Source of the DNA: Candidatus Dadabacteria bacterium
GTDB taxonomy: Bacteria; Desulfobacterota_D; UBA1144; Nemesobacterales; Nemesobacteraceae
Direction: 5' to 3'
Length of the DNA stretch: 64,000 nt
Assembly (NCBI GenBank): GCA_026705445.1
Contig: JAPPAR010000011.1
Location: 10,525 to 74,524 of the forward strand
In this document: positions 2,905-64,000 of the stretch, piece by piece
Layout of the letters: every line of letters begins with the position of its first letter
Numbering within the stretch: the first letter of the stretch is position 1
Notes under the pieces: model-generated
What the model saw: the letters and a program-made list of their open reading frames with translations, nothing else
Databases searched by the model: none
Told to the model about the DNA's origin: nothing
Made by a program: the position numbers and the translations under genes

Positions 2905-2933
2905 GGAAATAACAATACAGCGAGTTTCGGATC

Positions 2934-4172: not shown

Positions 4173-4265
4173 GCCGGCTGGCTCACCTTGAAAGAGCGAA
4201 ACGCGTGGCGGCCTGTCGCGCGCAACTTCTCCTGCTGCTTGATAAGAGAGATGAAGTTCCGTTAC

Positions 4266-4306
4266 CTTGCAAATTATGCATACGACTGTCTGATTTGCAA
4301 GAATAA
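4266..4306. repeat. second copy of the 41-bp hairpin element (perfect 8-bp stem TTGCAAAT/ATTTGCAA)
   Basis: See 176..216. Lies 94 nt after the ATPase stop. Confidence 0.5.
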
Positions 4307-4482
4307 ACGGCTCGAGGCTCACATACGTAACCAGAAAGAAGAGAGTTTCCTGATCTACCGAGGATAGATTTTCGCACGGCATTAACCACTTGCAGACTTG
4401 TGTCGGCAATCCAGAGATTCGTCGGTTCCTGAAATTTCGGCCTGCTGACCTGATCTCTCGCGCTCCACGAAGAGAAAGAAGC

Positions 4483-4884: not shown

Positions 4885-5114
4885 CAGAAGGGTTCCCTCT
4901 CCTGACTCCCGGTCTGACCGCGCTCATTCATGAAGTCATCCGTAACACCCTCCCCCTCAAACCAGCTGTCCCATGCTTCTCCAGCCGGAGTGATTAAGCG
5001 GGAACGCCCCAAGCGGATAATATCCACTTCCTTTACTGTATCCGGCAAGGAAACCGGTTTGGGAAGCCTCACCGCTTGGCTTTTATTGTTCTTAAAGACT
5101 TTTACCCTTTCCAT
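4884..5114 (-). CDS. vapB: type II antitoxin VapB (AbrB/MazE/SpoVT family)
   Basis: MERVKVFKNNKSQAVRLPKPV is a typical VagC/VapB N-terminus. Lies directly upstream of the overlapping vapC. Confidence 0.85.
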   Translation of the reverse strand: MERVKVFKNNKSQAVRLPKPVSLPDTVKEVDIIRLGRSRLITPAGEAWDSWFEGEGVTDDFMNERGQTGSQEREPF

Positions 5115-5142
5115 CTCTACCTCCAGACAGGAATATACTTAA

Positions 5143-5192
5143 CGTATATACATTGTAGCTGGCTGTTGGGATATGTAAAGAGTATATACGTA
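5143..5192. promoter_or_regulatory. perfect 10-bp inverted repeat (ACGTATATAC ... GTATATACGT) in the vapBC promoter region; candidate VapB operator
   Basis: Inverted repeat at 5143-5152 / 5183-5192, 29-78 nt upstream of the vapB start. Confidence 0.4.
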
Positions 5193-5275
5193 CTTTTTCT
5201 AAAAGCCTCCCCGAGAAAATTCAGAAATTGTGAAAAGTTGAAAAGACCGTTATCTCGAAGCGGGGCTAACTCCTC

Positions 5276-6736: not shown

Positions 6737-6773
6737 CTCTCAAAACCTCTTATCTTTAAAGACCAGGTCGCCC

Positions 6774-7940: not shown

Positions 7941-8196
7941 TTGAAGTCCTCCCGAGGATAGATAGGTCCTGACAAGGCAATAAGGCTAACTTAACGGTGC
8001 CCGATGGGCAAGTGTGATTTTGTGAGGAAAATCTCCTGCGGGAAGCGTTAACCGCCCCTTAACGGGCACTTTACGCCGCTTTGACGAAGATCGGGGATAA
8101 GTAGCGCTCGGGGGCATGTTTAGGGAATTATGTATGTCAACTTAAATACATAATTCCCCATGTTTAACAACGCCCGCAAAAAAGATTAGAATTACA

Positions 8197-9291
8197 TTGC
8201 GCGCGAGGAGAAAAGGTTTGAAGATACTCTACGCAATACAGGGAACCGGAAACGGCCACATAAGCCGCTCAAGAGACGTGATAGCCGAGCTTCGGAAGTC
8301 GGCCGAGGTCGACATTATGGTAAGCGAGCACCAGCACGAAATAGATCTCGGCTTCGAGGTCAAGTACAACCTGCGGGGACTCGGGTTTGTTTTCGGGAAA
8401 AACGGCGGGATCGACTACTACGCCTCGATAAAGAAGGCCCGCTTCGACAAGCTGCTCGGGGACGTAAACGACCTTCCCGTCGGGGATTACGACATGGTGG
8501 TAAGCGACTTCGAGCCCATATCCTCCTGGGCGTGCCGCCTCAAGAAAAGGCCCTGCGTTTCGCTTTCCCACCAGACGTCGTTCGCGTCCCCCAAGACCCC
8601 GAGGCCCGAGAAGCCGAACAAGATAATGGAATTCATAATAAAGTGGTACGCCCCCGTGTGCATACCGCTCGGGCTTCATTTCCGCGAGTACGACAACTTC
8701 ATAAAGACCCCCATAATAAGAAAGGAGCTTCGCCGCTACGAAGTGCGCCGAAACGGCCACTACACGGTCTATCTCCCGAGCTTTGACGAGCACACCCTGA
8801 TCAGGCATCTGAGCAAAATCGACGTGTGCTGGGAGCTTTTCTCAAAACACTACAAGGGAGAGCCCTACACAGAAGGAAACGTCACCGTGTACCCGGTAAG
8901 CTACGAGAAGTTCATAGAAAGCTTCACCGAAAGCGAGGGCATACTCACCAATGCCGGATTCGAGACGCCTTCCGAGGCCCTTTTCCTAGGCAAGAAGCTG
9001 CTCGCGGTGCCGATGAAGGGGCAGTATGAGCAGGAGTGCAACGCGGCGGCGCTTGAGCAGATGGGATTCGAGGTGCTCCACAAGGTGGGCAGCGATTTCG
9101 AAAGCGTCCTTGAGAGATGGGTATCCCTTCCCAGAGCGCAGCCCGAACCCTACAGGGACGTCGTTCCCGACATATCGGAAACCATACTCGCCCTTGCCGA
9201 GCGCTACGGGGGCGAAGAGGAGTTCAGACACCCGACCGGCTCCCCTATCGAAGACGCCGAGCGAAAGGGGCTCCTAGACCTTTTTCTCTGA
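8197..9291 (+). CDS. GT-B glycosyltransferase (MJ1255/TIGR00661-like)
   Basis: N-terminal ILYAIQGTGNGHISRS motif typical of MGT/UDP-glycosyltransferase-like proteins. 364 aa. Confidence 0.55.
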   Translation: MRARRKGLKILYAIQGTGNGHISRSRDVIAELRKSAEVDIMVSEHQHEIDLGFEVKYNLRGLGFVFGKNGGIDYYASIKKARFDKLLGDVNDLPVGDYDMVVSDFEPISSWACRLKKRPCVSLSHQTSFASPKTPRPEKPNKIMEFIIKWYAPVCIPLGLHFREYDNFIKTPIIRKELRRYEVRRNGHYTVYLPSFDEHTLIRHLSKIDVCWELFSKHYKGEPYTEGNVTVYPVSYEKFIESFTESEGILTNAGFETPSEALFLGKKLLAVPMKGQYEQECNAAALEQMGFEVLHKVGSDFESVLERWVSLPRAQPEPYRDVVPDISETILALAERYGGEEEFRHPTGSPIEDAERKGLLDLFL

Positions 9292-39163: not shown

Positions 39164-39544
39164 ATGAAAACCGGAATCCTGCTCGCAACACTTGTCTTTT
39201 CCTGCGCGCTCTTTCTCGCGCCCCACGCTTCCCGGGCTGCCGACAGCGCTAAGGGACAGGAAATCTACAACGTCTACTGCGCTACCTGCCACGGCCTCAC
39301 GGGGCTTGGCGACGGAGTCGCGGCCGCCGCTCTTGACCCCAAGCCGAGGGACCTCTCGAGCGCCGCGATCCTCGAGACCTATACGGACGAGTACCTGGTT
39401 AACGTGATAACAAACGGCGGAGCGGCGGTCGGCAAGTCCCCGATGATGACCGCCTGGGCCGGGATAATAAGCCCCGAGGACATAGACAACCTGGTGGCGC
39501 ACATAAGGCAGAACCTCTGCAAGTGCGAGTACAAAAAGCAGTAG
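39164..39544 (+). CDS. class I c-type cytochrome (monohaem, CATCH)
   Basis: Signal peptide MKTGILLATLVFSCALFLAPHASRA, haem-binding CATCHG, ~126 aa. RBS GAAGGGAGG upstream of the ATG at 39164; the longest ORF starts at 39065. Confidence 0.8.
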   Translation: MKTGILLATLVFSCALFLAPHASRAADSAKGQEIYNVYCATCHGLTGLGDGVAAAALDPKPRDLSSAAILETYTDEYLVNVITNGGAAVGKSPMMTAWAGIISPEDIDNLVAHIRQNLCKCEYKKQ

Positions 39545-39590: not shown

Positions 39591-39968
39591 CGCGCCCTTT
39601 TCCTTATATATAAGCCCTCAGACTCCCTTTTCCTCAAGACCCGGGGGAAGTTCTCCGTAATAGGGAGAGTCCTCCTCGTACATCTCAAGGACCCTCTCCT
39701 TGGGCATGTCGCACATATCTTCCGTGAAACCGAACATCCTGCATATGTGGCGAAGCTCCTCCTCCCTTCCCGGAAGCGGGTCCATGGGCTGTATCAGTTT
39801 CTCCCCCTCAAGCTCCTTCCGCACGTCCTGGTTCTCGGCAAGCGGAGTTCCGTACTCGTTTGAGTGATAGAGCCTGTCGAACCTCTTCCTCGGTCTCTGC
39901 CCAGGGTCCTCGGCCGCATATCCCACCGTCATGAGCCAGATGGGAACTATGTTCTCGGGAGTCCCGAG
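39591..39968. repeat. ~380-bp direct repeat, copy A (intergenic plus 3' 124 codons of the nitroreductase gene); copy B at 44350..44730
   Basis: ~95% identity by eye between 39591-39968 and 44350-44730. The last ~52 nt of the cytochrome c gene (39491-39544) recur at 39980-40031. Confidence 0.8.
39618..39968 (-). pseudogene. nitroreductase 3' fragment (duplicate of the C-terminal 117 aa of 44380..45261)
   Basis: LGTPENIVPIWLMTVGY...LPPGLEEKGV is near-identical to the C-terminus of the full gene. The N-terminus (MRHHVLYV) comes from the junction and the duplicated cytochrome c end. Confidence 0.75.
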
Positions 39969-40041
39969 GACATACAAAACGTGGTGGCGCACATAAGGCA
40001 GAACTTCCGCAAGTGCGAGTGCAGGAAGTAGGGAGAATTTG

Positions 40042-42828
40042 TCAGATTGATAGCGGCGTTGTTTTCGGCAACATCTTTTTTTTCTCCGAGAACCTCTTCC
40101 TTATATCAATTACGGCTTGAGTGATCTCTGCGGGCAGGGATTCGAGTTCCTCTCCCGTTTCCGCCCGCACCGCGTGCCAGAGCGGTTCCATGGTTTCAGT
40201 CAGGGCAGGATGGCTTTCCATTATCTGCATGACCTGCTGGCTCCAGCCGGCCGCCGCGAGATTGATCAGGGATTCCGTCAGACCATGCGTGTTCCAGCAC
40301 TGTTGGCCGACGGCGACGGAAAGCGCTCGGTCAAGTTTTTCCAGGGCTGCCATCCAGTTCCCGCAGCGGGCCAGTACATCGGAGACCGCATGAAACGCGG
40401 CAGGGTCTTCCGGCATCAGCTCCGCTGCGCGGCAAGCGTAGCGTTTCGCTTCTTCCAGGCGCGCAGCCTCGTCACCCCCGAGAATCGCTTCCGCCCTGAC
40501 GCGCCAGGCCTCGCCACACTCGGGGTCAAGCTCCACTGCTTTTTTGCAGCCCGATTCCGAGTCGTCATAATATCCCAGCGAGTTGGCAATATTGCTCTTG
40601 GTGGCCAGCAGTCTGGCGAATTTCCGACGCGTATCCACCGGGTCATCCACATAAACATATTCTGAAAACCGGTCGCAGGAAATGATCCAGTCTTCAAACC
40701 GCCCCAGTTCCAAGTACGCCGTGTCCAGAGCGAACAACGCCAGACCGGCACCGTAACGTAATGTTATCGAGTCATCGGTACGAACATATTGAGTGAAATT
40801 TTCCAAAATGGACACAGCTTCATCATAACGCTTTTGTGCGACAAGAGCGTTTCCTCTCTCGGCAAGCGTCTTGAGAAATGTCAGGCGTAACAATTCCGGA
40901 TCTTCCGGACAGACATATTGCGAGACCTGCCGCCAGATCGCGAGAGCTTCTTCATGATGATCCGCTTCCAAGAGAAGTTTGCCATGAACCCGAATCAACT
41001 CAGTAGCTACATAGCGCAGGGGATGCGGGTCATCCTGGTTTACAAGTTCCCAAATTTTTGCAATAACGCTTAAGACATCGCCAGAATTTTCCAAGGCGAG
41101 AAGGACTCCAGCCTCCCCCGTCAGAGCTCCAAGCGCGCAAATCTGCAATTGTGCGGGGTCATCGGGACCGACAGCCTCGGTTACATGCCTGAACGCATCG
41201 AGGGCATCCTCAAAATGCCTTCTTCCCCTTAGTGCCGAGCCAAGAAGAACCCAAGCAAAAAGATTATCCGGTTCTCGCCTGATTGCCCCTCTGCACTCGG
41301 TTTCCGCCTCCACGAAGCGTTCAGATTGGAGTAGTTCGATGCCGCGACAGACCTTATCCGAAAAACAATCCAAACCTAGCTGGTAGTGCCGGGAAAGGTC
41401 CCGCACTATTTCGCCAAATGCTGACACGTTCGCGCCGATAGAATTGATTATCAGGCTAAAGGCCTTCTTCATCCAGTCTTCGCGTTCCGCGAAATCACTG
41501 TCGTTCGCCGCATAGGGGATCAGGGCTCCAAGCAGTTCAGGCGCCTCTTCATCCTTAGAGACCCCGCTGCTTAACTTCTCAAGAGTCGCCAGATACATCG
41601 ACCGCATCGGAACCGGGCCGAACAGATCGTTGAGGAAGTCTACCAGCAGCTTCAGGCGTCGATATCCCCGCCGCGAGAAACGCAGCAGGAAGTAGATGTT
41701 GTAGAACCGGTCGGCAACCTCGTACCGGATACGCTTTTCCCTCTCTGGCCGCGCTTCCCTGGCGTATCCCTTGTCCACCAGCTGCTTGAGCTGGGCGCTT
41801 GTGTGAGATGAGGAAAGCCTGGCCGCGGCGGATACTTCCTTCGCGAGCATGGGACTCCATCCCTCCGCAAGGCAATGAAACACCTTTCGGGACTGTGTCG
41901 GCAGCTCCTCAATGCGGGACTTGAAGTACGGAGTCTGTTCGTCGATCAGCTGTTCTAGATCCTTGAACGCGGAACCGAGCGGCGACTCAACCAGAATTCC
42001 GTAGGTCAGCACCAGCAGCCGCGGGTTTCCTCCGGTCAGGCGGCGCATGGTCTCGATTCGCCCGCGTTCGCGGCTCAGTGTCTCGGCAATTTTAGTTTTG
42101 CATTCACGTTCTGCGAGGGCCCGGAAGATCTGAAGATACTCTTCGCGCCCAAGACCTTCCAGAAGAAAAACCCGGAAAAACTCGTAGAACGGTTCGCCGC
42201 GGTGCTGTATGGCCTCAAAGACGGCGTTTGCGGAACCGATCAGCAGTATCTCCGGATGTTCGATCAACGCGGCCCGCAAAGCGTGGACTTCGCGCTCATC
42301 ACCCAGTTGTGAGAAAACGATGTCAAGATTTTCGACAAACAGAATCAGCCTCTTTCCGCTTTCTCGGGAGAAATCAATAAGAACCGAGAGCGCGTACGCG
42401 GCAAGGCGCTGCGGATCCTTCTCGTCGGCCGAAAGCGCTTCTGCCTTGTCCTCCCATCGGGAATCCCGAGTGGCGCGGGTCAGGTGATGCAGGGCCGTAA
42501 GCCAGAAATCCGCCAGGTCGGTCACCTGATAGCTTTCCTCGTGAAACGCCACGGGCTGCCATGCTTCTGCAAGATCGGGCGTTTCGCGTACCGCCTGGAG
42601 AAACCGCAGACCGAGGGTGGTTTTGCCCATCCCCCGCGAACCGACAAGCAGCATGTGCTGGCACGGTCGGTCGGTTTTCTGCTCGTCCAAGAGGCGAAGC
42701 ATCTCAGTGAGGGTCTCCTGACGGGCGACGAAGGAAGCCTTGAGTTCTTCCGGGGAGAGTTGGGCCGGGTTGTAGATACGTCTTTGCTTCATGGCTCCAT
42801 CCCCCCTGACCGGTTTTTCCGCCACCAC
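40042..42828 (-). CDS. ORC/Cdc6-like AAA ATPase (Arch_ATPase type) with a winged helix and a long C-terminal TPR array; STAND-like NTPase
   Basis: Walker A LLVGSRGMGKTTL, Walker B RLILFVENLD, winged-helix segment, then ~450 aa of TPR-like repeats. 928 aa. Overlaps the upstream ATPase gene by 40 nt. Confidence 0.75.
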   Translation of the reverse strand: MVAEKPVRGDGAMKQRRIYNPAQLSPEELKASFVARQETLTEMLRLLDEQKTDRPCQHMLLVGSRGMGKTTLGLRFLQAVRETPDLAEAWQPVAFHEESYQVTDLADFWLTALHHLTRATRDSRWEDKAEALSADEKDPQRLAAYALSVLIDFSRESGKRLILFVENLDIVFSQLGDEREVHALRAALIEHPEILLIGSANAVFEAIQHRGEPFYEFFRVFLLEGLGREEYLQIFRALAERECKTKIAETLSRERGRIETMRRLTGGNPRLLVLTYGILVESPLGSAFKDLEQLIDEQTPYFKSRIEELPTQSRKVFHCLAEGWSPMLAKEVSAAARLSSSHTSAQLKQLVDKGYAREARPEREKRIRYEVADRFYNIYFLLRFSRRGYRRLKLLVDFLNDLFGPVPMRSMYLATLEKLSSGVSKDEEAPELLGALIPYAANDSDFAEREDWMKKAFSLIINSIGANVSAFGEIVRDLSRHYQLGLDCFSDKVCRGIELLQSERFVEAETECRGAIRREPDNLFAWVLLGSALRGRRHFEDALDAFRHVTEAVGPDDPAQLQICALGALTGEAGVLLALENSGDVLSVIAKIWELVNQDDPHPLRYVATELIRVHGKLLLEADHHEEALAIWRQVSQYVCPEDPELLRLTFLKTLAERGNALVAQKRYDEAVSILENFTQYVRTDDSITLRYGAGLALFALDTAYLELGRFEDWIISCDRFSEYVYVDDPVDTRRKFARLLATKSNIANSLGYYDDSESGCKKAVELDPECGEAWRVRAEAILGGDEAARLEEAKRYACRAAELMPEDPAAFHAVSDVLARCGNWMAALEKLDRALSVAVGQQCWNTHGLTESLINLAAAGWSQQVMQIMESHPALTETMEPLWHAVRAETGEELESLPAEITQAVIDIRKRFSEKKKMLPKTTPLSI

Positions 42829-44000
42829 TCCCTAAGCAGGTTCGATCTGAAACACACATGGGAGCCATCCCGCCGCACGTACCCGTCCGATTCCAGATTG
42901 CGAAGCGCCGAGAGAAGCTCGCTTTCGCCCTGCCGGGTCAGTTTCTCAATATCCGAGATGCGCGCACCGTCTCTCCGCCGACAGGCGTGATTGAGTATGT
43001 CGTGCGCCGCTTCCTGCTCGTCTGCGTCAAGCATGATTTCCAAGCGGGCTGCGTAATGGTCAAGATGAGGCGTGCCGCCAGGTCCCGTAAGCCTTTCCGT
43101 GAAGCATCGCTCTATTGCACTTTCGGAAACGCGCGAGGGGTCCCCATTGCAGGATTGGCGAAGGGTCGAAAAAAACAGTTGCAGGTGATAGGGAACCGGA
43201 TCCGAGAGGAGGTCGAGAATTTGTGAGACGCTACGTTCGTCCATGCGGAAGCCATAACTGTCTCCAAGCTCCTCCAGAAACTTAACTGCGACATCCCGGT
43301 CCCATGAATCCAGCTGGAAAGGGGCCAGATCGTTTATTAATCCCGAAAGAGCAAAGCGTCTGAGAACGCCTTCAAGCCCGATGGACCCGCCGATCAGTGT
43401 GCACACCTTCCCGCGCATCTGCGGAGACTGGCGCCAGCGCCGGAGCCCGGACAGCAGCAACTCGACATCATGTTTTCCCTCGAGGGTTTTCAGCATGCGC
43501 GAGACGAGTATCGGAAACTCGTCGAGGATGATCAGGAGGCTGCGACCGGGATCCGGCAGACTCTCAAGACGTTCAAGAAGCTGATCCGCTGTACGTTTCC
43601 AGTCCCGGCCGATCGCCCTTTTGAGTTCAATGCGGACTTTTTCGATGCTGACGGAAACTTCGGAAAAGGAAAATGTGCTCTTGAGCGTGTCTACTACGGT
43701 CTTTGCGAACGGAATTTTTTCGATGCCTCGGCGGTACTCCGGGTTCACCGCCAGAGCGGCGACAATTGCCGCCAAGCAATCCGCCGAATCTTCGGCACCT
43801 TCAACATCCACATAAAAGACATCCCAGTTTTCCCGAGGTTCGCGACGAAGTTCCAACATGAGGCTGGTCTTCCCGACCCGTCGCGGGGCAAGCATCAGAA
43901 CATGCTCTCCCTGCTCCAGTTTTTCCCATAGCAGTTCCAGTTCGGATTCTCGTCCGTAGAGGTCTTCGCCGATTACCGCCTGTCCTGTAATGTTTTGCAT
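42789..44000 (-). CDS. ORC/Cdc6-like AAA ATPase (Arch_ATPase + DUF234-like winged-helix C-terminus)
   Basis: Walker A LMLAPRRVGKTSL, Walker B LLIILDEFP. 403 aa. First gene of a two-gene operon with the ATPase-TPR gene. Confidence 0.75.
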   Translation of the reverse strand: MQNITGQAVIGEDLYGRESELELLWEKLEQGEHVLMLAPRRVGKTSLMLELRREPRENWDVFYVDVEGAEDSADCLAAIVAALAVNPEYRRGIEKIPFAKTVVDTLKSTFSFSEVSVSIEKVRIELKRAIGRDWKRTADQLLERLESLPDPGRSLLIILDEFPILVSRMLKTLEGKHDVELLLSGLRRWRQSPQMRGKVCTLIGGSIGLEGVLRRFALSGLINDLAPFQLDSWDRDVAVKFLEELGDSYGFRMDERSVSQILDLLSDPVPYHLQLFFSTLRQSCNGDPSRVSESAIERCFTERLTGPGGTPHLDHYAARLEIMLDADEQEAAHDILNHACRRRDGARISDIEKLTRQGESELLSALRNLESDGYVRRDGSHVCFRSNLLREWWRKNRSGGMEP

Positions 44001-44349
44001 CCGCTCGACTCCCGTTCAGATCAGGATGGAAAACAGAATACATGACAAGGGGTTTTTTGGCAATAAACTTTTTGGCAAAAAGTTTATTGCCATAGGGGAA
44101 TCCACAGAAGATGCTATCGTCGCACTTCCACGAAATCCAAGGCAATCATTCAGGTCCAGAAAACCCGACAGACGCACAGTCAGTTTTTCAGCACAGCGGA
44201 AAACGGCGAAACACTATACACCCAAAGCGTAGTCACCATCACTCATCGCCTTTCGCCCAAGGACATGTCCGCCACGCACTTTCCTAGCCTCGCTCGCTCA
44301 TCAGAAGCTCCTTCTCCCGCAGCCTCCCAGCCACTTTTTTTTCTTCTCG

Positions 44350-44730
44350 CGCGCCCTTTTCCTTATTATATATAAGAGCTCAGACTCCCCTTTCCTCAAG
44401 GCCCGGGGGAAGTTCCCCGTAATAGGGAGAGTCCTCCTCGTACATCTCAAGGACCTTATCCTTCGGCATGTCGCACATATCTTCCGTGAAACCGAACATC
44501 CTGCATATGTGGCGAAGCTCCTCCTCCCTTCCCGGAAGCGGGTCCATGGGCTGTATCAGTTTCTCCCCCTCAAGCTCCTTCCGCACGTCCTGGTTCTCGG
44601 CAAGCGGAGTTCCGTACTCGTTTGAGTGATAGAGCCTGTCGAACCTCTTCCTCGGTCTCTGGCCGGGATCCTCGGCCGGGTATCCCACCGTCATGAGCCA
44701 GATGGGAACTATGTTCTCGGGGGTCCCGAG
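44350..44730. repeat. ~380-bp direct repeat, copy B (within the intact nitroreductase gene and its downstream region)
   Basis: See 39591..39968. Confidence 0.8.
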
Positions 44731-45261
44731 AACCTTCGGGAACTCAGCCGGCTTTCTGCCCGTGGCTATAAGGCAGCACCCGAGGCCCAGGTCAGTGGCC
44801 GCGAGCATGGCGTTCGCTATTGCCTGGCCCGCCTCGACCCTTAGAAGATCCTCCGCCCTGTCCTTGGGAAAACTCATGAGCCTCGGATAGGTGCTCTCGG
44901 TAAGTATCTTGTAGGTCCAGCCGTGAGCGGCGGTTATGGCCCTCGCGGGAAACAGCACCTGGAAGGTCTGTATGAGCTCCTTGTACCAGGCGTCTAGGTT
45001 TATGAGCCACGCCACGATAATCGGGGCCTGGCGCAGGTGAATCTCGTTAAAAGCGGATCCGCATTCAACTATCTTCTCGAATTTCTCCGGGGGATAGGTC
45101 CTTTTGTCTATGACTATCGCCTCGGTCGAGTTGCAGTTGCCCTGGCAGGAGCAGTAGCGCGCCGCCTGGAGCATCTTCTGTATTTTCCAGTCCTCAACCT
45201 CTTTCCAGGGCTTATAGAACCTAAAGCTTCTCCTGGTGCCCATTGCTTCAAAAACTTCCAT
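44380..45261 (-). CDS. nitroreductase-family flavoprotein
   Basis: N-terminal RRSFRFY motif, nitroreductase-fold length and pattern, 293 aa. Confidence 0.7.
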   Translation of the reverse strand: MEVFEAMGTRRSFRFYKPWKEVEDWKIQKMLQAARYCSCQGNCNSTEAIVIDKRTYPPEKFEKIVECGSAFNEIHLRQAPIIVAWLINLDAWYKELIQTFQVLFPARAITAAHGWTYKILTESTYPRLMSFPKDRAEDLLRVEAGQAIANAMLAATDLGLGCCLIATGRKPAEFPKVLGTPENIVPIWLMTVGYPAEDPGQRPRKRFDRLYHSNEYGTPLAENQDVRKELEGEKLIQPMDPLPGREEELRHICRMFGFTEDMCDMPKDKVLEMYEEDSPYYGELPPGLEERGV

Positions 45262-46410: not shown

Positions 46411-47319
46411 ATGAGGTGCTGCATGGCAGAAAGCCTTCCTTTCGAGCCTGATGACTTGGACCAGAAAACCGTATCTCCCTTAAAGGAACTAGGGGCGTAT
46501 GAAGCGTTATGGGATCAAAAGGGCATGTCCTTCAAAAAAATTTCCGAAATGCACCAAGGCCGCTGGGAATCGTCTCTTTCTGATTTTGTGGACGAAGCCA
46601 TTGCCTACGAGTTTGCCGGTCGTGTTCGCAGTTTGTTCGACGAGTCTGGGATTGACAAGTTCGGCGTTTGTGTTCGTGGTACGGGAGAATACCCCAAAGG
46701 CCTCTATGACGCCGTTTATCCGGTTGAATTGCTTTATTTTCAGGGATTGTGGGGTCTGGTTTTCACAAGATCAGTTGCGGTCGTGGGTACGCGCAAGCCG
46801 TCCGAAAAGGGAGTTGCTCGTACGCGCCGCCTTGTCAGAAACTTGGTGGAAAACAATTTCACCATAGTTTCAGGGTTAGCTTCTGGAATCGACACCGTCG
46901 CACACACTACAGCGATTGAGTCTGGAGGCCGGACCATAGGAGTAATTGGCACCCCGATTTCAAAATTCTATCCAAAGGAAAATGTTGAGCTTCAGAAGAA
47001 AATAGCAAAGGAGCATTTGCTTGTAAGCCAAATTCCAGTATGCCGTTACTTGCGGCAGGGGCCGCGCGGGAATCGGCTATTCTTTCCAGAGCGTAATATA
47101 ACGATGTCCGCACTTGCCGAAGCAACTATTATTGTCGAGGCTGGCGAAACATCAGGAACTCTGGTTCAAGCTGCCGCGGCTCTTAAACAGGGAAGGAAAT
47201 TATTCATCCTTGATAATTGTTTTTGCAATTCCACTCTCACTTGGCCAAGAACTTTTCTTGAGAAAGGCGCTATAAGGGTTGCTGATTACGAAGATATAAG
47301 GAGACATCTTGGCTCTTAG
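46411..47319 (+). CDS. DprA/Smf-like (SLOG/DNA_processg_A Rossmann) domain protein
   Basis: VAVVGTRKPS...IVSGLASGIDTVAHTTAIESGGRTIGVIGTPI...IVEAGETSGTLVQAAAALKQGRKLF is the DprA-type Rossmann core. AT-rich; overlaps the next gene by 11 nt. Confidence 0.7.
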   Translation: MRCCMAESLPFEPDDLDQKTVSPLKELGAYEALWDQKGMSFKKISEMHQGRWESSLSDFVDEAIAYEFAGRVRSLFDESGIDKFGVCVRGTGEYPKGLYDAVYPVELLYFQGLWGLVFTRSVAVVGTRKPSEKGVARTRRLVRNLVENNFTIVSGLASGIDTVAHTTAIESGGRTIGVIGTPISKFYPKENVELQKKIAKEHLLVSQIPVCRYLRQGPRGNRLFFPERNITMSALAEATIIVEAGETSGTLVQAAAALKQGRKLFILDNCFCNSTLTWPRTFLEKGAIRVADYEDIRRHLGS

Positions 47320-47941
47320 GCTCTGCAAGATTGATGATCTCTTACGAAGCGATCATTTATATCTTACGGAAGATGATCATTGCTTTTTTTTTCGGGAATA
47401 TACCGCAAACAAGAGCTACGATTACGGCGAAACTAACGACCTAATTCAGAATTTTAAGAAAGAGCTAGATAAAAAAGGTACATCTCAATGGAAATACAAG
47501 GGAAAGGCAATAAACAAAATAGCGGAAGAATTTCGGGAATCGTTAAAAGCGGAATGGTTTGAGGAATACACCTTAGTTCCGATTCCACCATCAAAATCAA
47601 AAGAAGACCCACTCTATGACGATCGTATGGTTCAAATGCTTAAGATTTTTGGGCAAGGGCTTAACCTTGATATCCGTGAATTGGTCCTGCAACGCGAAAG
47701 TACCCCACCATTTCACAAAATCACCCCTCGTCCACCTTGGGAAGACCTAGTTGATAACTATTACATTGACGAAAATATCGCAAATCCTGAACCGAAAAAG
47801 ATTATTTTATTTGATGACCTTCTCACTGAAGGCGCACATTTCAAAGCTGCCCAACATGTTCTTGAGAAGAGATATCCCGGCATAATTACCAGAGGGGTTT
47901 TTATAGCACGACGAGTATATGCGGATGCCGAAGAAATTTAA
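47309..47941 (+). CDS. phosphoribosyltransferase (type I PRTase)-like protein
   Basis: PRPP-binding motif IILFDDLLTEGAHF. 210 aa, translationally coupled to the DprA-like gene. Confidence 0.7.
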   Translation: MALRLCKIDDLLRSDHLYLTEDDHCFFFREYTANKSYDYGETNDLIQNFKKELDKKGTSQWKYKGKAINKIAEEFRESLKAEWFEEYTLVPIPPSKSKEDPLYDDRMVQMLKIFGQGLNLDIRELVLQRESTPPFHKITPRPPWEDLVDNYYIDENIANPEPKKIILFDDLLTEGAHFKAAQHVLEKRYPGIITRGVFIARRVYADAEEI

Positions 47942-48088: not shown

Positions 48089-48134
48089 CGTATATAATAA
48101 TCCATTATGAGCAACGGGAAATCCTTTATGATAG
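48089..48134. repeat. duplicated copy of the nitrilase promoter and first 8 codons (direct repeat with 49035..49080)
   Basis: gtatataataatccattatgagcaacgggaaatcctt here and gtataataacccattatgagcaacggaaaatcctt at 49035..49080. The repeats flank the HEPN/MNT cassette. Confidence 0.75.
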
Positions 48135-48229: not shown

Positions 48230-48652
48230 ATGATTGAATACGACAAATTTCAAAATTCCCTGAAACGCCTTGAGGAACAGTACGGAAATTACCGTGCCAT
48301 AGAGAACTCTGACCTGGATTCGATAATGTGGGAAGCTGTGGCCGAGTCGGTCATACACAGGTTTGAGGTCTGTTACGACTGCCTATGGGAGGTGCTGAGA
48401 CGCCACCTCGCAGAGGAGCTCGGCGTTCCAGATGCCCCAAACAGCCCGAAACCTGTTTTCAGACTGGCCTTTGAAAACAACCTTCTCCCCTCACCGATCG
48501 AAAAATGGCTTGATTACGCAAACAGCCGCATCAATACAAGCCATGACTATGATGAGGGAAAGGCCAGAAGATGCCTTGGAATCATAAGCAGCTTTATTGA
48601 CAATGCCACAGGTCTTTACGAAACAATGAGCGGAGAAACATGGAAACAGTAA
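48230..48652 (+). CDS. nucleotidyltransferase substrate-binding protein, HI0074 family (HEPN-like toxin of a HEPN/MNT pair)
   Basis: Family pattern (NTase_sub_bind), 140 aa, overlaps the downstream MNT gene by 13 nt. Confidence 0.7.
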   Translation: MIEYDKFQNSLKRLEEQYGNYRAIENSDLDSIMWEAVAESVIHRFEVCYDCLWEVLRRHLAEELGVPDAPNSPKPVFRLAFENNLLPSPIEKWLDYANSRINTSHDYDEGKARRCLGIISSFIDNATGLYETMSGETWKQ

Positions 48653-48957
48653 AAGCTATTGATATCTCTTCTGAGCAGCGCGGCGTTCTTCTTGCGCTGC
48701 TTAAAAAGCATCTTCCGAATACCCGCGTCTGGGTATACGGTTCCCGCGCGAGGCTTGCCGCGAAAAAGAGTTCGGACCTCGACATGGTGGTATTTGCCGG
48801 AAGCGGACAGAGAAGACAGGTCGGCGATCTTCGGGAAGCTCTTGAACAGAGCGATCTTCCGTTTCGGGTGGACCTGTTCGTGTGGGATGACATGCCGGAG
48901 AGATTCCGGGAGAAAATTGAAGGTGACCACGTAACCCTTGTTTCCCCTGACCACTAA
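48640..48957 (+). CDS. minimal nucleotidyltransferase (MNT, HI0073-like antitoxin)
   Basis: GSRARLAAKKSSDLDMVVF is the GS-x9-13-DxD nucleotidyltransferase motif. 105 aa. Confidence 0.8.
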   Translation: METVKAIDISSEQRGVLLALLKKHLPNTRVWVYGSRARLAAKKSSDLDMVVFAGSGQRRQVGDLREALEQSDLPFRVDLFVWDDMPERFREKIEGDHVTLVSPDH

Positions 48958-49034: not shown

Positions 49035-49080
49035 GTTGTATAATAACCCATTATGAGCAACGGAAAATCCTTCACGGCGG
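49035..49080. repeat. native nitrilase promoter/start; second copy of the direct repeat
   Basis: See 48089..48134. Confidence 0.75.
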
Positions 49081-50203: not shown

Positions 50204-50842
50204 TTACGACTTAGCAAACGAAATCAGGGAATCATAGATACCAGAGTCAGCCTCACGCAGTGCCGCAATATAGCGTTCGCGGACATCTTCAGACGCAGTG
50301 AGGTCGGCACCACCGCCCCATGTGAGTTTTTCACCACCATATTTGGCAACTATTACATCGGCAAGCAAGCGCGCGTGTCGGCCGTTGCCGTTCGGAAAAA
50401 GGTGAATTTTCACTAACCGGTGATGAAAAATAACGGCCAGTTCAGCAACACCGTAGGTATTGTGTTCCAGCCAATAAGCGGCATCGTCCAGCAACTTGCG
50501 AAATTCGGTCTGGATGAGGGAATAGTTGACGCCGATGTTTTTGTCGGATTTTCGGTACTGACCTGCCCATTTCCAGACACGACCGAACATGCGCTTATGA
50601 AGGTTCAGGATAAATTTCTCCGAAAAAATATTCTGTTTCGATGCCAAAACAGATTTCCGCATTACCCATCTCCGGGCTTCAAGAATATTTTCCCGCTCGA
50701 AACGGTCCAGATCTTCACGCATTAATATGGTGGGAACGAGATGTTCCTTCTCTTCCTCGCTAAGCGGGGTCTGGCCCTCTGTATAACGATACTGAACCAT
50801 TTCAGTCCCACAGACTGATGGCAGGGTTGCGCACCAACTCAT
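50204..50842 (-). CDS. Fic/Doc-family protein ('mobile mystery protein B')
   Basis: Fic motif HLFPNGNGRHARLLADV. The true start is probably MVQYRYTEG, which overlaps the partner gene. Confidence 0.8.
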   Translation of the reverse strand: MSWCATLPSVCGTEMVQYRYTEGQTPLSEEEKEHLVPTILMREDLDRFERENILEARRWVMRKSVLASKQNIFSEKFILNLHKRMFGRVWKWAGQYRKSDKNIGVNYSLIQTEFRKLLDDAAYWLEHNTYGVAELAVIFHHRLVKIHLFPNGNGRHARLLADVIVAKYGGEKLTWGGGADLTASEDVRERYIAALREADSGIYDSLISFAKS

Positions 50843-51251
50843 CAGCGATTTGGGCGGTTTTCTCCTGCCTGTCGCCTACATCCTGCGCTTCAAGCATCAT
50901 GCTGTGGTCCACAGGATCAACGATATCACGAGCCTTTCTGAGCGCCTGCTTGCGCACGATGTTCCGCAAGGAGCCATCATTTGGAACAAAAACATAAACG
51001 AGCCTGCAATCCAATGCTTCAGCCGCCTTGCGAAGCGACCTAAGTGTAATCGCATCATTGATCTCGTTTTTCTCCAAACGAGCGGCGGATTGCTGTGTGA
51101 TTCCTATACGTTCCGCCATCTGACGAACGCTCATGCCAAGCGAGGTGCGGACAGCACGAATCCAACCGCCAGAGGGACGGTCGCAAACATTCACTCTGGA
51201 AAGGTGGTCATCCAGCGTCTGCAATTGCATATACTTAAATTTGTTTGTCAT
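50802..51251 (-). CDS. XRE-type HTH protein ('mobile mystery protein A')
   Basis: HTH (MSVRQMAERIGITQQSAARLE) and the family pattern, immediately upstream of the Fic gene. Confidence 0.75.
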   Translation of the reverse strand: MTNKFKYMQLQTLDDHLSRVNVCDRPSGGWIRAVRTSLGMSVRQMAERIGITQQSAARLEKNEINDAITLRSLRKAAEALDCRLVYVFVPNDGSLRNIVRKQALRKARDIVDPVDHSMMLEAQDVGDRQEKTAQIADELVRNPAISLWD

Positions 51252-62019: not shown

Positions 62020-62654
62020 GATTCACTGAAAGAAAAAGTGGATAGTCGGAACGAAACGTCAGTCAGGTTGGGGTTGTCGAACCTGGTTTTTATCCTAAGG
62101 TCCGAGACCTTGAGTATGGTCTTGCTTCTCTGAAAGGTATAGAGAACGTTGAACACCCTTGGGACGGGCACCTTGTTTATCTTGACCAGGACCGCTCTTT
62201 CCCGGTTTATCCCTTTCCCCCTGACCGACGGGTTTGTTCCCTTTATGGAAAATGAGCGGGGGTCTATGCCGTTTCTTACGAGCGCTTTCTCCGCAACCGA
62301 AATAAGCGCATCCCTCTCCTCTTTCATCGAACCGCTAAACTCGGCCAGGAGATCCCTGGAGTAGCGGTACTCCTCCTTAATGGACCTCATCTCGCTTAGC
62401 TGCAGTCTCACCTGGCTTACCTCGCTTTTTACCTCGGAACCCCCGGGGAAAACCGCCCTGTAGGCGGAAAAGAGTATGAAAACGGCAAGGGCTGCGGCAG
62501 CTATCTTGAGGGCGCGGATATCCCTCGCGGAGAATTGTCCCCTGTCTATGAGCTCCCTTACCCTTCGCGCCAAGGGTTCGGCTCTTCCCAGAACCGCCGA
62601 GAGAAGGGATTTGAGTCCCTGCACCAGTCTTTGCACCAGCTCCTTCATTTTCAC
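62016..62654 (-). CDS. gspM: type II secretion system protein M-like
   Basis: Single transmembrane helix and coiled coil, translationally coupled to gspL and gspN. Confidence 0.5.
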   Translation of the reverse strand: MKMKELVQRLVQGLKSLLSAVLGRAEPLARRVRELIDRGQFSARDIRALKIAAAALAVFILFSAYRAVFPGGSEVKSEVSQVRLQLSEMRSIKEEYRYSRDLLAEFSGSMKEERDALISVAEKALVRNGIDPRSFSIKGTNPSVRGKGINRERAVLVKINKVPVPRVFNVLYTFQRSKTILKVSDLRIKTRFDNPNLTDVSFRLSTFSFSES

Positions 62655-64000
62655 CTGACGACCATTGATATTTCGAATTTCAAACCGCTGCTAATGGCCT
62701 TTCCAACCTGCCCCATCTTCACCTGGGTGAAGCTGCCGGACTCCGAGAAGGCTTTCTCTATCGACGCTATCTCCTCGTAGGAATCGCTCCTGCCCCATAT
62801 CTTGGTCTTGCCCCCGTCCTCGATCCTTATTTCGTCAACGGAGAAACTCACGTCCCTCGGAATGGCGGCGGAAACCGCCGTCAGCACCTCAAGCGGGCTG
62901 TGGGCCCCTCTTACCTGCTTCAGTATGTCGAGCTTTCGGTTGATGACTTCAAGCTTCCCCCTGTAAAAAGCAACCGGGTCCTGCGTCCCCGCGGCCTGCG
63001 GAAACTCCCTCCTGAGATCCATCTCCATCTCGGAGCGTATGGAACTCATCTTGCTCCTGGCGGAGACCACTTCCGTCACGCGCCCGAAAACAAACACAAG
63101 AAGCAGGGCGGCGCACAGGGCGACGGGAACCCGAAATTCCTTCAATAAAACCCCCGCCATCCCCCGCGGCCTGTATCCGTCCCTTCTCAGGTTGAGTCTT
63201 CCTCCCTTGCCGTAGGAACCTCCGTAAAGCGCAAGAGCGTACGCCCTTGCGAAAAAAGGAGAGTCATTGTGGCCGAGCTGCTCTATGAAAATTCTTTTCA
63301 CTTCCCGGCCGAGCTGCTCGGTAAGTTCTTTTGTAACTCCATCCACCTCGCATATCCCTCCGGTGAGAACCAGGTTCTTTACCTCCTCTCCCGTCTCTCC
63401 CTCAAAGTAGCGTATAGTGTTTCTTATCTCTTCTGTGATGAAGCGGCAGCTTTCAAGAAACCCCTTCCTCTTCTCCTCGTCGCTGTTTATCTGCTCCAAG
63501 TCGAGGTCATCCGCGGCAAGGGATTTTTTCATTCTCTCGAGGGAGTCGTCGCAGTTCCTCACCCTGCTGAGCCCGCTTTCGTCAAAAAACGAGAAATTGA
63601 GGTGGTCCTGGTCGGCGTCTATAAGGAGAAGCGGTCTCGGCCCTTCAATAAGTTCCCCCAGAGAAGAAAACGCAACCGGTGTGAAAGTCACCTGGTCCGG
63701 ATCCACACCAGACTCCCGCAGGGAGCCCAGATAGCCCTCAAACGCCTCCTTCTCAAAAGCGGGAACGATGATCTCGGCCCCTTCCGGTTTCCTCACCTCG
63801 TGGTAGTCGGACAGCACGTCCTCTCCCAGGGTGAACCCGGTTGAGTTCTCAAGCTCGAAGCGGAAAACTCGCCTGAGCTTCTTTGAATCGGTGAAGGGAA
63901 ATTTGAGAACCCTGAGAAGAAGCGGGGAAGAGCAGATTCCGGTAACGGCTCTGGTCCCGAGAGAAATTTTGTCTTTGAGAAAAGCTGACGTGTCGCCGCT
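62651..64000 (-). CDS. gspL: type II secretion system protein L (N-terminus runs off the window end)
   Basis: Cytoplasmic actin-like domain, transmembrane helix and periplasmic domain. The frame stays open upstream of the annotated Met to position 64000. Confidence 0.6.
   Translation of the reverse strand, partial: SGDTSAFLKDKISLGTRAVTGICSSPLLLRVLKFPFTDSKKLRRVFRFELENSTGFTLGEDVLSDYHEVRKPEGAEIIVPAFEKEAFEGYLGSLRESGVDPDQVTFTPVAFSSLGELIEGPRPLLLIDADQDHLNFSFFDESGLSRVRNCDDSLERMKKSLAADDLDLEQINSDEEKRKGFLESCRFITEEIRNTIRYFEGETGEEVKNLVLTGGICEVDGVTKELTEQLGREVKRIFIEQLGHNDSPFFARAYALALYGGSYGKGGRLNLRRDGYRPRGMAGVLLKEFRVPVALCAALLLVFVFGRVTEVVSARSKMSSIRSEMEMDLRREFPQAAGTQDPVAFYRGKLEVINRKLDILKQVRGAHSPLEVLTAVSAAIPRDVSFSVDEIRIEDGGKTKIWGRSDSYEEIASIEKAFSESGSFTQVKMGQVGKAISSGLKFEISMVVR

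What the first reader, a model, noticed from the sequence alone, without database searches (positions are those of the whole stretch)
40042..44000. Overlapping pair of ORC/Cdc6-like AAA ATPases, the second with a ~450-aa TPR array
Two paralogous Arch_ATPase-type P-loop proteins form a tight two-gene operon with a 40-nt overlap: 403 aa with a winged-helix/DUF234-like C-terminus, and 928 aa with a winged helix plus a long TPR array.

NTPase + TPR architecture is that of STAND sensors (as in Avs antiviral proteins). However, there is no nuclease or other effector domain on either protein.

The mobile context suggests a signalling or defense module whose effector may be supplied elsewhere, or an uncharacterised two-component ATPase system.
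Basis: partly seen in the sequence, partly recalled or inferred. Interest (0 to 1): 0.55.

Follow-up and report, generated by a model that had tools for sequence, protein, structure and literature searches.

The report
Mobile self-regulated two-ATPase sensor cassette
This is a 4-kb mobile cassette with two translationally coupled ATP-switch proteins, one carrying a TPR sensor array, and its own conserved DNA operator; the three parts stay together across many bacterial phyla, often beside anti-phage genes, so it is probably an uncharacterised defence or sensing module whose output is unknown.

Summary
The two genes are real. Gene A is 42789-44000 (-), 403 aa. Gene B almost certainly starts at the ATG at 42792 (916 aa), so the overlap is the 4-nt ATGA, not 40 nt.

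A-then-B is kept in 83 of 83 loci, down to 24-30% identity, and on plasmids of cultured bacteria. There is no conserved third gene and no effector domain.

It has TTG[C/G]CAA cores exactly 15 nt apart in 49 of 50 close relatives. The distant clade has 16-nt dyad repeats instead.

Operator, A and B move as one ~4-kb cassette with sharp ends. It is accessory, sometimes decayed, and in roughly a fifth of loci lies next to known defence genes. It is absent from PADLOC and from the phage collections.

My best reading is an autoregulated, effector-less STAND/ORC-like conflict sensor (confidence 0.45). The main rivals are a plain ligand-gated transcription factor and an ORC-like replication module.

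The parts
44035..44093 (-). Operator array overlapping the promoter of the operon. Exact TTGCCAA cores lie at 44078-44072 and 44063-44057, 15 nt apart. Degenerate copies lie 15 nt further out on each side: TGGCAAT at ~44093-44087 and TTGTCAT at ~44048-44042. The promoter-like site is -35 TTGCCA (44063-44058), a 17-nt spacer, then -10 TATTCT (44040-44035). The ATG of A is at 44000.
   Evidence: Sequence. The promoter scan is. The double core has 2 overlapping matches in the 64-kb window against 0.01 expected. Two exact cores 15 nt apart occur in 49 of 50 distinct upstream regions of close relatives. In 1.31 Mb of related loci the double core occurs only at this position. The distant clade has 16-nt dyad repeats at the same place.
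42789..44000 (-). Gene A: a 403-aa P-loop NTPase of the ATPase_2 (Arch_ATPase/DUF234-like) fold with a C-terminal winged helix. Walker A is LAPRRVGKTS. Walker B is LLIILDEF (D160 E161). It carries the family motif GGSIGLEG and the conserved tail FRSNLLREWWRK.
40042..42792 (-). Gene B: 916 aa, starting at the ATG at 42792 (ATGA overlap with A's stop). It is an AAA_16 / ORC-Cdc6-like NTPase with a winged helix, a TPR array and a conserved tail. Walker A is GSRGMGKTT (42642-42616). Walker B is LILFVENLD, i.e. hhhh[D/E]N.D throughout the family.
41668..41895 (-). B residues ~300-375: an ArsR/MarR-like winged helix-turn-helix with putative recognition helix LSSSHTSAQLKQLVDKGY. It is followed by the family-wide basic motif YEVADRFYNIYFLLRFSRR. 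This is my candidate for the operator-binding element (inferred).
   Evidence: Weak Pfam matches in the window protein (HTH_IclR, MarR_2, HTH_5, HTH_27). Some homologues reach threshold: MarR 28.9 bits and HTH_5 23.0 bits in L081, DprA_WH 30.3 bits in L072. The recognition helix differs between clades that have different operators: SSSHxS, DVNxVS and ERGxAS.
40243..41355 (-). B residues ~480-850: a TPR-like helical repeat array and the fastest-evolving part of the protein. Its length varies between homologues, and it is largely deleted in some.
   Evidence: TPR families and PDB TPR matches. Identity to homologues is 27-45% here against 65-84% in residues 1-400. B lengths range from 497 to 1099 aa in the close clade. 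There is no DNA-level tandem repeat.
40078..40242 (-). B residues ~851-905: a conserved C-terminal helical tail (MEPLWHAVRAETGEELESLPAEI). Its function is unknown.
   Evidence: The tail is conserved in the close clade. It is recognisable in the 30% clade as W.PL.EAL.A...G...YL.R.APE[VI]R.PAE. Versions of B that have lost the TPRs still keep it.

Best explanation
**Shown.** Window 40042-44093 is one self-contained genetic unit. It consists of a promoter-overlapping operator array and two translationally coupled NTPase genes. The unit is inherited and horizontally moved as a ~4-kb cassette. It is accessory and sometimes decayed. It has no conserved partner gene and no enzymatic effector domain. 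It is recurrently found beside known anti-phage systems.

**Inferred mechanism.**
- B is a STAND/ORC-like switch.
- Its ArsR/MarR-like winged helix, alone or with A, binds the 15-16-bp repeat array. This represses the operon and anchors the complex on DNA.
- Its variable TPR array senses a ligand, most likely a protein or peptide from an invading phage or plasmid.
- Ligand plus ATP drives hetero-oligomerisation with A, the ATPase_2-fold partner made in fixed ratio through the ATGA coupling.

**Output (inferred).** Since no effector is encoded, the output is either the nucleoprotein or ATPase assembly itself, for example blocking replication or transcription of target DNA, or the recruitment of a host factor. 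I read it as an uncharacterised anti-mobile-element defence or conflict module of the STAND/ORC-like kind.
For: **Pairing and coupling.**
- A is followed by B in 83 of 83 loci.
- The 4-nt overlap is present in 70 of 83.
- The pair is also kept at 24-26% identity on plasmids of Segatella copri, Moraxella osloensis and Clostridium.
- There is no conserved third gene.

**Operator.**
- It is found in 49 of 50 close-clade upstream regions.
- It occurs nowhere else in 1.31 Mb of related loci.
- It overlaps the -35 hexamer.
- The 30% clade has 16-nt dyad repeats instead (19 of 23 loci).
- Plasmid homologues have further variants.
- B's recognition helix changes along with the operator.

**Cassette.** DNA identity of 72-89% starts about 84 nt before A and ends about 25 nt after B, with unrelated flanks.

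**Accessory nature.**
- Some copies are disrupted or lack the TPRs.
- One contig carries two copies.
- In Dadabacteria the cassette sits in a variable hotspot between nitroreductase and cytochrome c. Relatives also hold HEC-01, GajA and an RT there.

**Defence neighbours.** Among the three nearest ORFs on each side I found type I-F and I-E CRISPR-Cas, Hma, DISARM, HEC-01, AbiEi, MADS and RmrA. By my estimate this affects about 9-12 of ~48 loci. Lee et al. 2026 use a background of 1.5% (PMC13581612). The binomial P is 7e-7 to 7e-12.

**Sensor-like evolution.** The TPR region evolves about twice as fast as the NTPase.

**Precedent.** A mobile two-gene operon in which both proteins are STAND NTPases has been predicted as a counter-invader system (nSTAND2, PMC8195603).
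Against: - No experiment bears on this, and no effector is present.
- No PADLOC family matches either protein.
- Many loci lie among ordinary metabolic genes. The defence association is therefore partial. My per-locus count is an estimate from family-level tallies, not a DefenseFinder run.
- A and the NTPase of B are unusually conserved for immune sensors, at 57-63% and 65-84% identity across loci labelled as different phyla.
- The operator and winged helix would equally suit a plain transcription factor.
- Which protein binds the operator has not been shown.
- No homologue was found in 50,697 phage records or in IMG/VR. That is neutral for defence.
Confidence: 0.45

Rival explanations
1. The pair is a ligand-gated transcription regulator of the STAND type, like MalT, AfsR or IniR, with no immune role. 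The TPR array senses a metabolite or peptide. The ATP-bound A/B oligomer binds the repeat array and controls transcription of its own operon and of unlinked targets.
For: - The operator array overlaps the promoter and co-varies with the protein clade.
- B has an ArsR/MarR-like winged helix.
- There is no effector domain.
- Many neighbours are metabolic genes.
- Sequence conservation is high.
- Non-immune STAND transcription factors are interspersed with defence clades (PMC13581612).
Against: - The double operator occurs nowhere else in the 64-kb window or in 1.31 Mb of flanks.
- No neighbouring gene is conserved that could be the target.
- The unit moves as a cassette into unrelated contexts and decays.
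- Known defence genes are enriched next to it.
- A second full ATPase partner is not a feature of the MalT-type regulators that I know of.
Confidence: 0.25
2. The pair is an ORC/Cdc6-like initiator pair with its own iteron- or ORB-like origin. It would be the replication or maintenance module of a minimal mobile element, with the tandem repeats as the origin and the two ATPases as a heterodimeric initiator.
For: - Tandem dyad repeats lie directly beside the initiator-like genes.
- The repeats mark one sharp end of the mobile unit.
- Homologues occur on plasmids.
Against: - There are only 2-4 repeats. They coincide with the -35/-10 region and sit 25-85 nt from the start codon, as expected for autoregulation.
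- No helicase, primase or recombinase is linked.
- Copies sit singly in Mb-scale chromosomal contigs.
- The Moraxella and Sphingobium plasmids are typed with other replicons.
- Nothing was found in the phage or IMG/VR collections.
- A long, variable TPR sensor is not expected in an initiator.
Confidence: 0.1
3. The pair is a host-interaction factor of sponge symbionts: a 'eukaryote-like' TPR protein, with its ATPase partner, that acts on sponge cells.
For: - The close clade (47-63% identity for A outside Dadabacteria) comes almost wholly from MAGs whose isolate names point to sponge and other aquatic-symbiosis projects. This is my inference from the names.
- TPR proteins are enriched in sponge-associated MAGs (PMC8163846).
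- LRR and Sel1 genes lie nearby in two loci.
Against: - Nothing in the Pfam, NCBIfam or PADLOC scans points to secretion or membrane association. Signal peptides were not tested directly.
- The unit has its own DNA operator.
- Homologous pairs occur in Enhygromyxa salina, in MAGs labelled Acidobacteria, Polyangiaceae, Verrucomicrobiota and Methylococcaceae, and on plasmids of Segatella, Moraxella and Clostridium.
Confidence: 0.05

Closest known systems
Archaeal ATPase_2 (Arch_ATPase, PF01637) / DUF234 proteins: PAB2304 (2qen) and SSO1545 (2fna)
   Different: In the window protein the sequence match is below Pfam's threshold (25.2 bits against 33.2). A is always coupled to a second, TPR-bearing NTPase and to an operator. 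As far as I know, the archaeal proteins are stand-alone and of unknown function.
Archaeal Orc1/Cdc6 initiators, including the Orc1-1/Orc1-3 heterodimer on origin DNA (2qby)
   Different: The pair is bacterial, mobile and accessory. B carries a ~370-aa TPR array and a conserved tail. The repeats coincide with the promoter. There is no link to replication genes.
Avs, bNACHT and other antiviral STAND NTPases
   Same: B has a central NTPase, a winged helix and a C-terminal TPR-like sensor that evolves faster than the NTPase. The pair is often near defence genes.
   Different: There is no N-terminal effector, and no PADLOC Avs or NLR model matches. A second ATPase is obligatory. The operator is conserved. 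The NTPase lies nearer to ATPase_2/ORC than to classical NACHT or AP-ATPase.
The mobile two-gene operon of two nSTAND2 NTPases predicted as a counter-invader system (Kaur et al. 2021, PMC8195603)
   Same: It is a mobile two-gene operon whose constant core is two STAND-type NTPases, presumed to form a hetero-multimer.
   Different: In nSTAND2 one partner has eroded NTP-binding motifs and is fused to variable effectors (GT4, HEPN). Here both partners keep Walker A, no effector is fused, B carries TPRs, and no nSTAND2 match appeared in the Pfam scans.
STAND transcription factors: MalT, AfsR/SARP-type and IniR
   Different: They are single proteins with a dedicated LuxR, BTAD or other DNA-binding domain and a defined regulon. 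Here there are two proteins, the winged helix of the NTPase module is the only DNA-binding candidate, and only the operon's own promoter carries sites.

Membership tests
Pfam ATPase_2 (PF01637), gene A | Sequence score at or above the Pfam gathering threshold (33.2 bits) | tested here: not met
   The window protein scores 25.2 bits. Of the three plasmid homologues, Clostridium reaches threshold (34.5 bits), while Segatella (30.3) and Moraxella (26.8) do not.
Pfam ATPase_2 (PF01637), gene A | The fold of the solved family members: P-loop domain, helical lid and C-terminal winged helix | tested here: met
STAND NTPases, gene B | NTPase + helical domain + winged helix, followed by C-terminal repeats | tested here: met
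   AAA_16 scores 41.5 bits against a cut-off of 32.6, with TPR families as well. The model shows the winged helix at ~299-360 and repeats at ~480-850. One homologue passes nSTAND_NTPase5 (35.3 bits against 34).
STAND NTPases, gene B | Walker B of the hhhhD[D/E] type | tested here: inconclusive
   The family has hhhh[D/E]N.D (LILFVENLD, LVLLVDNVD). From my own knowledge this resembles the NACHT D-x-x-D/E arrangement. Hydrolysis competence cannot be read from the sequence.
Avs (antiviral STAND) families | An N-terminal or C-terminal effector domain (nuclease, protease, SIR2, TIR and so on) | tested here: not met
   Neither protein has such a domain in Pfam, NCBIfam or PADLOC. The NTPase starts within ~30 residues of the N-terminus in both.
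Avs (antiviral STAND) families | A match to a curated Avs or NLR model | tested here: not met
   In PADLOC-DB v2, B has 0 families at E <= 0.01, and A has only mad8 (2.3e-5) and weak PDC-S hits. Distant homologues behave the same way.
Avs (antiviral STAND) families | Activation by a phage protein and protection from phage | not testable with these tools
   This needs co-expression and plaque assays.
ORC/Cdc6 initiators | An AAA+ initiator-type fold with a C-terminal winged helix | tested here: met
ORC/Cdc6 initiators | Sequence membership (the Pfam ORC-CDC6-like family, PF24389, or Cdc6 families) | tested here: not met
   B scores 20.4 bits against a cut-off of 27, and over only 43 of 571 profile positions. 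One homologue reaches 31.3 bits over the same short stretch.
ORC/Cdc6 initiators | Origin binding and helicase loading | not testable with these tools
   Repeats lie next to the genes, but no replication gene is linked.
Known anti-phage systems (PADLOC-DB v2.0.0) | Both proteins match the models of one named system | tested here: not met
nSTAND2 two-gene system (Kaur et al. 2021) | One partner with eroded NTP-binding motifs, fused to variable effectors (GT4, HEPN) | tested here: not met
   Both partners keep GKT/S Walker A motifs throughout the family, and no effector is fused. The description is from PMC8195603. I did not check whether Pfam holds an nSTAND2 model.

The most novel reading that the evidence does not exclude
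The pair is an effector-less immune or mobile-element-control system in which a DNA-anchored hetero-oligomer of two ORC/STAND-like ATPases is itself the effector. On sensing a ligand through the TPR array it would assemble on DNA and block replication or transcription. Alternatively, it is a bacterial ORC-like initiator pair that forms, with its repeat array, a new kind of minimal mobile replicon. Either would be a mode of action not described for bacterial STAND systems.
Probability: 0.12. Interest if true: 0.8.

Novelty: new variant of a known kind. Interest (0 to 1): 0.55.

Why it matters
**If it is a defence system.** It would add a two-ATPase, effector-less, DNA-anchored design to the STAND/NLR repertoire. 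It would also raise the question of how an immune sensor works without a nuclease, protease, NADase or pore.

**Testable handles.**
- The co-varying operator gives a cis element that is easy to test.
- Homologous pairs exist in cultured strains: Enhygromyxa salina DSM 15201, Segatella copri DSM 18205, Moraxella osloensis and Clostridium estertheticum. Experiments are therefore feasible.

**Gene flow.** The close clade is shared at 72-89% DNA identity between loci with unrelated flanks. By their record titles these loci come from MAGs of several phyla, apparently in one habitat (sponge and other aquatic-symbiosis MAGs, inferred from isolate names). This is a clean case of cassette-level gene flow without a recognisable recombinase.

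**A function for the family.** It would also give a first functional context for the large and uncharacterised ATPase_2/DUF234 family.

Tried and rejected
- **Known systems.** PADLOC and NCBIfam give nothing beyond weak P-loop-level hits for A, B and four distant homologous pairs.
- **Phage carriage.** There are no relatives in IMG/VR or in 50,697 phage records.
- **A third conserved gene or effector.** Clustering all ORFs within +-10 kb of 83 loci gives nothing beyond lineage synteny.
- **Paralogy of A and B.** hhalign aligns only the P-loop.
- **DNA-level tandem repeats in the TPR region.** None found.
- **Terminal inverted repeats or a recombinase at the cassette ends.** The ends are sharp, but I saw no repeat between the left end and the 110 nt after B.
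- **Counting defence neighbours by BLAST with single seeds.** This was too insensitive. I used family-level PADLOC tallies instead, which do not give exact per-locus counts.
- **Literature.** I found no paper describing this pair. The DUF234 search was swamped by DUF2345 papers. The supplementary clade tables of Lee et al. 2026 are not held, so I could not check whether B's clade is among their 589.
- **'Inactive' B.** I considered calling B an inactive ATPase because its Walker B is E-N. I rejected that claim because the motif resembles the NACHT D-x-x-D arrangement.
- **An A-like gene upstream of the solo B-like genes** on the Agrobacterium, Sphingobium and Mycobacterium plasmids. None found.


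Full report
**Observation.** The minus strand carries two ORFs at the stated coordinates: 42789..44000 (403 aa, ATG) and 40042..42828 (928 aa from a GTG). The junction reads GGAGCC-ATGA-AGC. An ATG at 42792 overlaps the TGA of the first gene. A public protein of 916 aa is 100% identical over its whole length (P0121, labelled Candidatus Dadabacteria). Gene calls on five public contigs that carry both genes use that start, giving a 4-nt overlap. The same 4-nt overlap occurs in 70 of 83 homologous loci. So the '40-nt overlap' and '928 aa' are artefacts of taking the longest ORF. The real arrangement is classic ATGA translational coupling.

**Gene A.**
- Pfam gives only sub-threshold matches: ATPase_2 25.2 bits, plus AAA_22, AAA_16 and nSTAND6.
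- Walker A (LAPRRVGKTS), Walker B (LDEF), a GGSIGLEG motif and a C-terminal FRSNLLREWWRK motif are invariant in the close clade.
- They remain recognisable in 30%-identity and plasmid homologues.

**Gene B.**
- It has AAA_16 above threshold (41.5 bits) and many TPR families.
- Its model (pLDDT 77; the lid region is poor) shows an NTPase, a winged helix at ~299-360, about 370 residues of helical repeats and a C-terminal helical tail.
- Walker B is hhhh[D/E]N.D throughout the family.
- A and B align to each other only around the P-loop (hhalign, 88% probability, 66 columns). 'Paralogous' is therefore weakly supported at best.
- Neither protein has an effector domain, and neither matches a named defence system. 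In PADLOC, B has no hit and A has mad8 at 2e-5.

**Conservation of the pair.**
- Both families have hundreds of relatives. Many contig lengths coincide between the two hit lists.
- A scan of one genome per species found 184 relatives of A, of which 77 loci were fetched.
- Together with loci from exact look-ups, 83 of 83 loci have a B homologue immediately downstream on the same strand.
- This includes a clade at only ~30% identity, in which B keeps the NTPase + winged helix + TPR architecture.
- At 24-26% identity the pair recurs on plasmids:
  - Segatella copri DSM 18205: A plus a 298-aa B without TPRs, beside WYL and DUF262 genes.
  - Moraxella osloensis: beside Qat genes and an N6-methylase.
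  - Clostridium estertheticum: A plus a 943-aa TPR protein.
- Clustering all ORFs within 10 kb shows no third conserved gene.
- An exhaustive search of 1.84 billion cluster representatives gives 255 clusters at E <= 1e-30 and 1140 at E <= 1e-10. The family is real but not large.
- Two rare fusions put an AbiEi-type wHTH, or an AlbA_2 + HATPase_c_4 module, in front of A.
- B-like proteins without A occur beside Pycsar-like cyclases on Agrobacterium and Sphingobium plasmids.

- Upstream of A the window reads ATGGCAATAAAC-TTTTTGCCAAAAAG-TTTATTGCCAAAAAAC-CCCTTGTCATG-TATTCT.
- Two exact TTGCCAA cores lie 15 nt apart (44078-44072 and 44063-44057), with degenerate copies 15 nt further out on each side.
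- The second core is the -35 hexamer of the only promoter-like site on this strand: TTGCCA, 17 nt, TATTCT.
- In 49 of 50 distinct upstream regions of the close clade, two exact TTG[C/G]CAA cores sit exactly 15 nt apart, 60-85 nt before the ATG.
- In 1.31 Mb of those loci the double core occurs nowhere else. In the 64-kb window it is unique, against 0.01 expected.
- The 30% clade has a different element at the same place: 2-4 tandem 16-nt units with dyad symmetry, ACAACA-N4-TGTTGT. Enhygromyxa salina has four perfect copies. In 19 of 23 loci the best period is exactly 16.
- The plasmid homologues have further variants, for example AACTATAAAATTATAGTT in Moraxella.
- An operator that changes with the protein clade shows that the module recognises its own promoter sequence-specifically.
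- B's winged helix looks like an ArsR/MarR recognition unit (LSSSHTSAQLKQLVDKGY). Its first residues differ between operator classes: SSSHxS, DVNxVS and ERGxAS.
- A's third helix is hydrophobic and acidic, and it varies less with operator class. I therefore favour B as the binder. This is inference.

**Mobility and accessory nature.**
- Between loci with unrelated flanks, DNA identity of 72-89% begins about 84 nt before A, at the first operator repeat, and ends about 25 nt after B's stop.
- No recombinase lies inside, and I saw no terminal repeats.
- Several copies are disrupted: frameshifted B in L011, N-terminally broken A in L049-L056, and B versions that have lost most TPRs.
- One contig holds two copies.
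- In Dadabacteria the cassette sits between a nitroreductase gene and a cytochrome c gene.
  - Relatives show SDR-NR-[A-B]-cyt c. In some, a 43-89-nt cyt c 3' fragment lies before A. In some, extra genes are inserted after B.
  - The window and L007 carry a 381-nt duplicate of the nitroreductase 3' end and a 72-nt cyt c fragment after B.
  - The extra genes in that hotspot are HEC-01A/B (6e-155 and 3e-68), the N-terminal half of GajA (9e-127; profile positions 1-309 of 604), a reverse transcriptase and an AlbA_2 protein.

**Defence association.**
- The window itself has, within 10 kb, Shosta (3e-94 and 3e-47) and TnpB. It also has HicB-like, MNT-like NTase and Fic pairs, and a 2008-aa PIN-TPR-GreAB-C protein.
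- Among the three nearest ORFs on each side of 48 dereplicated loci, PADLOC finds strong hits:
  - type I-F and I-E CRISPR-Cas;
  - a complete Hma;
  - DISARM DrmA and DrmD;
  - HEC-01 (four proteins);
  - AbiEi, MADS mad2/mad3 and RmrA.
- The tool reports families rather than loci. I therefore estimate that 9-12 of 48 loci are affected.
- Against the 1.5% background used by Lee et al. 2026 (PMC13581612), the binomial P is 7e-7 to 7e-12.
- Many other neighbours are ordinary metabolic genes. The association is real but partial.

**Distribution.**
- Outside Dadabacteria, the close clade has 47-63% identity for A and 40-54% for B.
- By record titles it spans MAGs labelled Dadabacteria, Binatia, Latescibacterota, Spirochaetia, Acidobacteria and Desulfurellaceae.
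- It also includes Alpha- and Gammaproteobacteria.
- Isolate names such as RHO1_bin, COS2_bin and SB0661_bin, and the UUID-named long-read MAGs, point to sponge and other aquatic-symbiosis projects.
- The phyla match those listed for sponge MAGs by Robbins et al. 2021 (PMC8163846).
- This habitat link is my inference from the names, not a checked fact. Some taxonomic labels are inconsistent: L014 and L023 share their flanks but carry different labels.

**Evolutionary pattern within B.** Residues 1-400 are 65-84% identical to homologues and the repeat region is 27-45% identical. The last ~60 residues rise again to 55-67%. That tail is conserved even in the 30% clade and in B versions that lack TPRs. 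Its role is unexplained.

**Interpretation.**
- Shown: this is a self-contained, mobile, accessory unit of operator + ATPase_2-fold NTPase + ORC/STAND-like NTPase with a winged helix, TPRs and a tail. The genes are translationally coupled, and there is no effector and no conserved partner.
- Inferred:
  - B, perhaps with A, represses the operon by binding the repeat array.
  - The TPR array senses a ligand.
  - ATP-dependent assembly with A gives the output.
- Given the cassette behaviour, the decay, the hotspot context and the enrichment of defence neighbours, I favour an anti-mobile-element conflict module (0.45).
- The same anatomy fits a ligand-gated transcription factor without an immune role (0.25).
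- Less well, it fits an ORC-like initiator pair with its own origin (0.10).
- It could also be a host-interaction TPR factor of symbionts (0.05).
- The nearest described concept is the mobile two-gene operon of two nSTAND2 NTPases predicted by Kaur et al. 2021 (PMC8195603). That system has one eroded NTPase fused to GT4 or HEPN effectors, which is not the case here.

**Verdict.**
It needs correcting on the overlap, the length of B and the paralogy.
This is not an Avs and not any named system.
- It is best filed as a new variant within STAND/ORC-like NTPase modules. It is uncharacterised, has a clear cis element, and has cultured sources for testing.

Noticed in passing
window 46411-47941 (+): A complete Shosta anti-phage system: ShosA (DprA-like, PADLOC 2.8e-94) and ShosT (PRTase-like, 3.5e-47), with overlapping genes. 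It lies 2.4 kb from gene A, separated from it only by an SDR gene and a nitroreductase gene.
   Followed up: partly
window 39591-39968 and 44350-44730; also 39960-40031: A 381-nt direct repeat (95.5% identity) flanks the cassette. The downstream copy is a stranded 3' fragment of the nitroreductase gene 44380-45261. Next to it is a 72-nt copy (86% identity) of the 3' end of the cytochrome c gene 39065-39544. Relatives show simpler versions of the same hotspot, so this looks like a recombination scar from cassette insertion or exchange.
   Followed up: partly
window 37896-39062 (+): An IS200/IS605-type TnpB RNA-guided nuclease gene (NCBIfam guided_TnpB, 200 bits), with no TnpA beside it. Two other 388-aa ORFs (6774-7940 and 62651-63817) have the same length but are not DNA repeats of it. 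I did not examine them.
   Followed up: no
window 27577-33603 (+): A 2008-aa ORF. Its public counterpart carries the Pfam families HTH_upst_double_PIN, PIN-TPR-GreABC and Permuted_GreAB-C, which mark a giant conflict-system protein. HicB-like genes follow at 33731-34813.
   Followed up: no
window 48093-48126 and 49039-49072: Two copies (94% identity) of a 34-nt sequence, 946 nt apart, bracket a two-gene nucleotidyltransferase / NTase_sub_bind (MNT-HEPN-like) pair at ~48230-48957. This may be a small cassette with repeated ends.
   Followed up: no
window 34882-36525 (+): A 547-aa ORF between the HicB-like genes and TnpB. It has no match in PADLOC, NCBIfam or the precomputed Pfam hits. Two small unannotated genes follow at 36631-37278.
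   Followed up: no
window 50204-51251 (-): An HTH_3 gene followed by a Fic-domain gene, which looks like a toxin-antitoxin pair. It adds to the density of conflict genes in this 25-kb stretch.
   Followed up: no
L009 14358-16977; L010 14433-16939; L011 16960-20119 (Dadabacteria relatives): The same hotspot between nitroreductase and cytochrome c holds other defence genes in relatives: HEC-01A/B, a GajA gene apparently split by a 410-aa ORF of TnpB-like size that I did not scan, a reverse transcriptase and an AlbA_2 protein. The locus is a defence-island hotspot in this lineage.
   Followed up: partly
L001, L014-L016, L023, L025, L026, about 10-30 nt before the start of A: In one subclade of the cassette the 5' UTR contains TCTCCACAGGAGA, a short hairpin that would include the Shine-Dalgarno sequence. 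This may be an extra layer of translational control. It is absent from the window's version.
   Followed up: no
L093 (Agrobacterium pAtCFBP7129a) 1283-9192; L094/L096 (Sphingobium baderi plasmid): Solo B-like NTPase-TPR proteins (30-32% identity in the NTPase) lie beside adenylate/guanylate cyclase genes. The Agrobacterium locus also has a ThiF-family gene. The Sphingobium plasmid also carries a Pycsar effector, AbiE, TIR, and E1/E2 and JAB genes. Relatives of B may therefore work with cyclase-based systems.
   Followed up: partly
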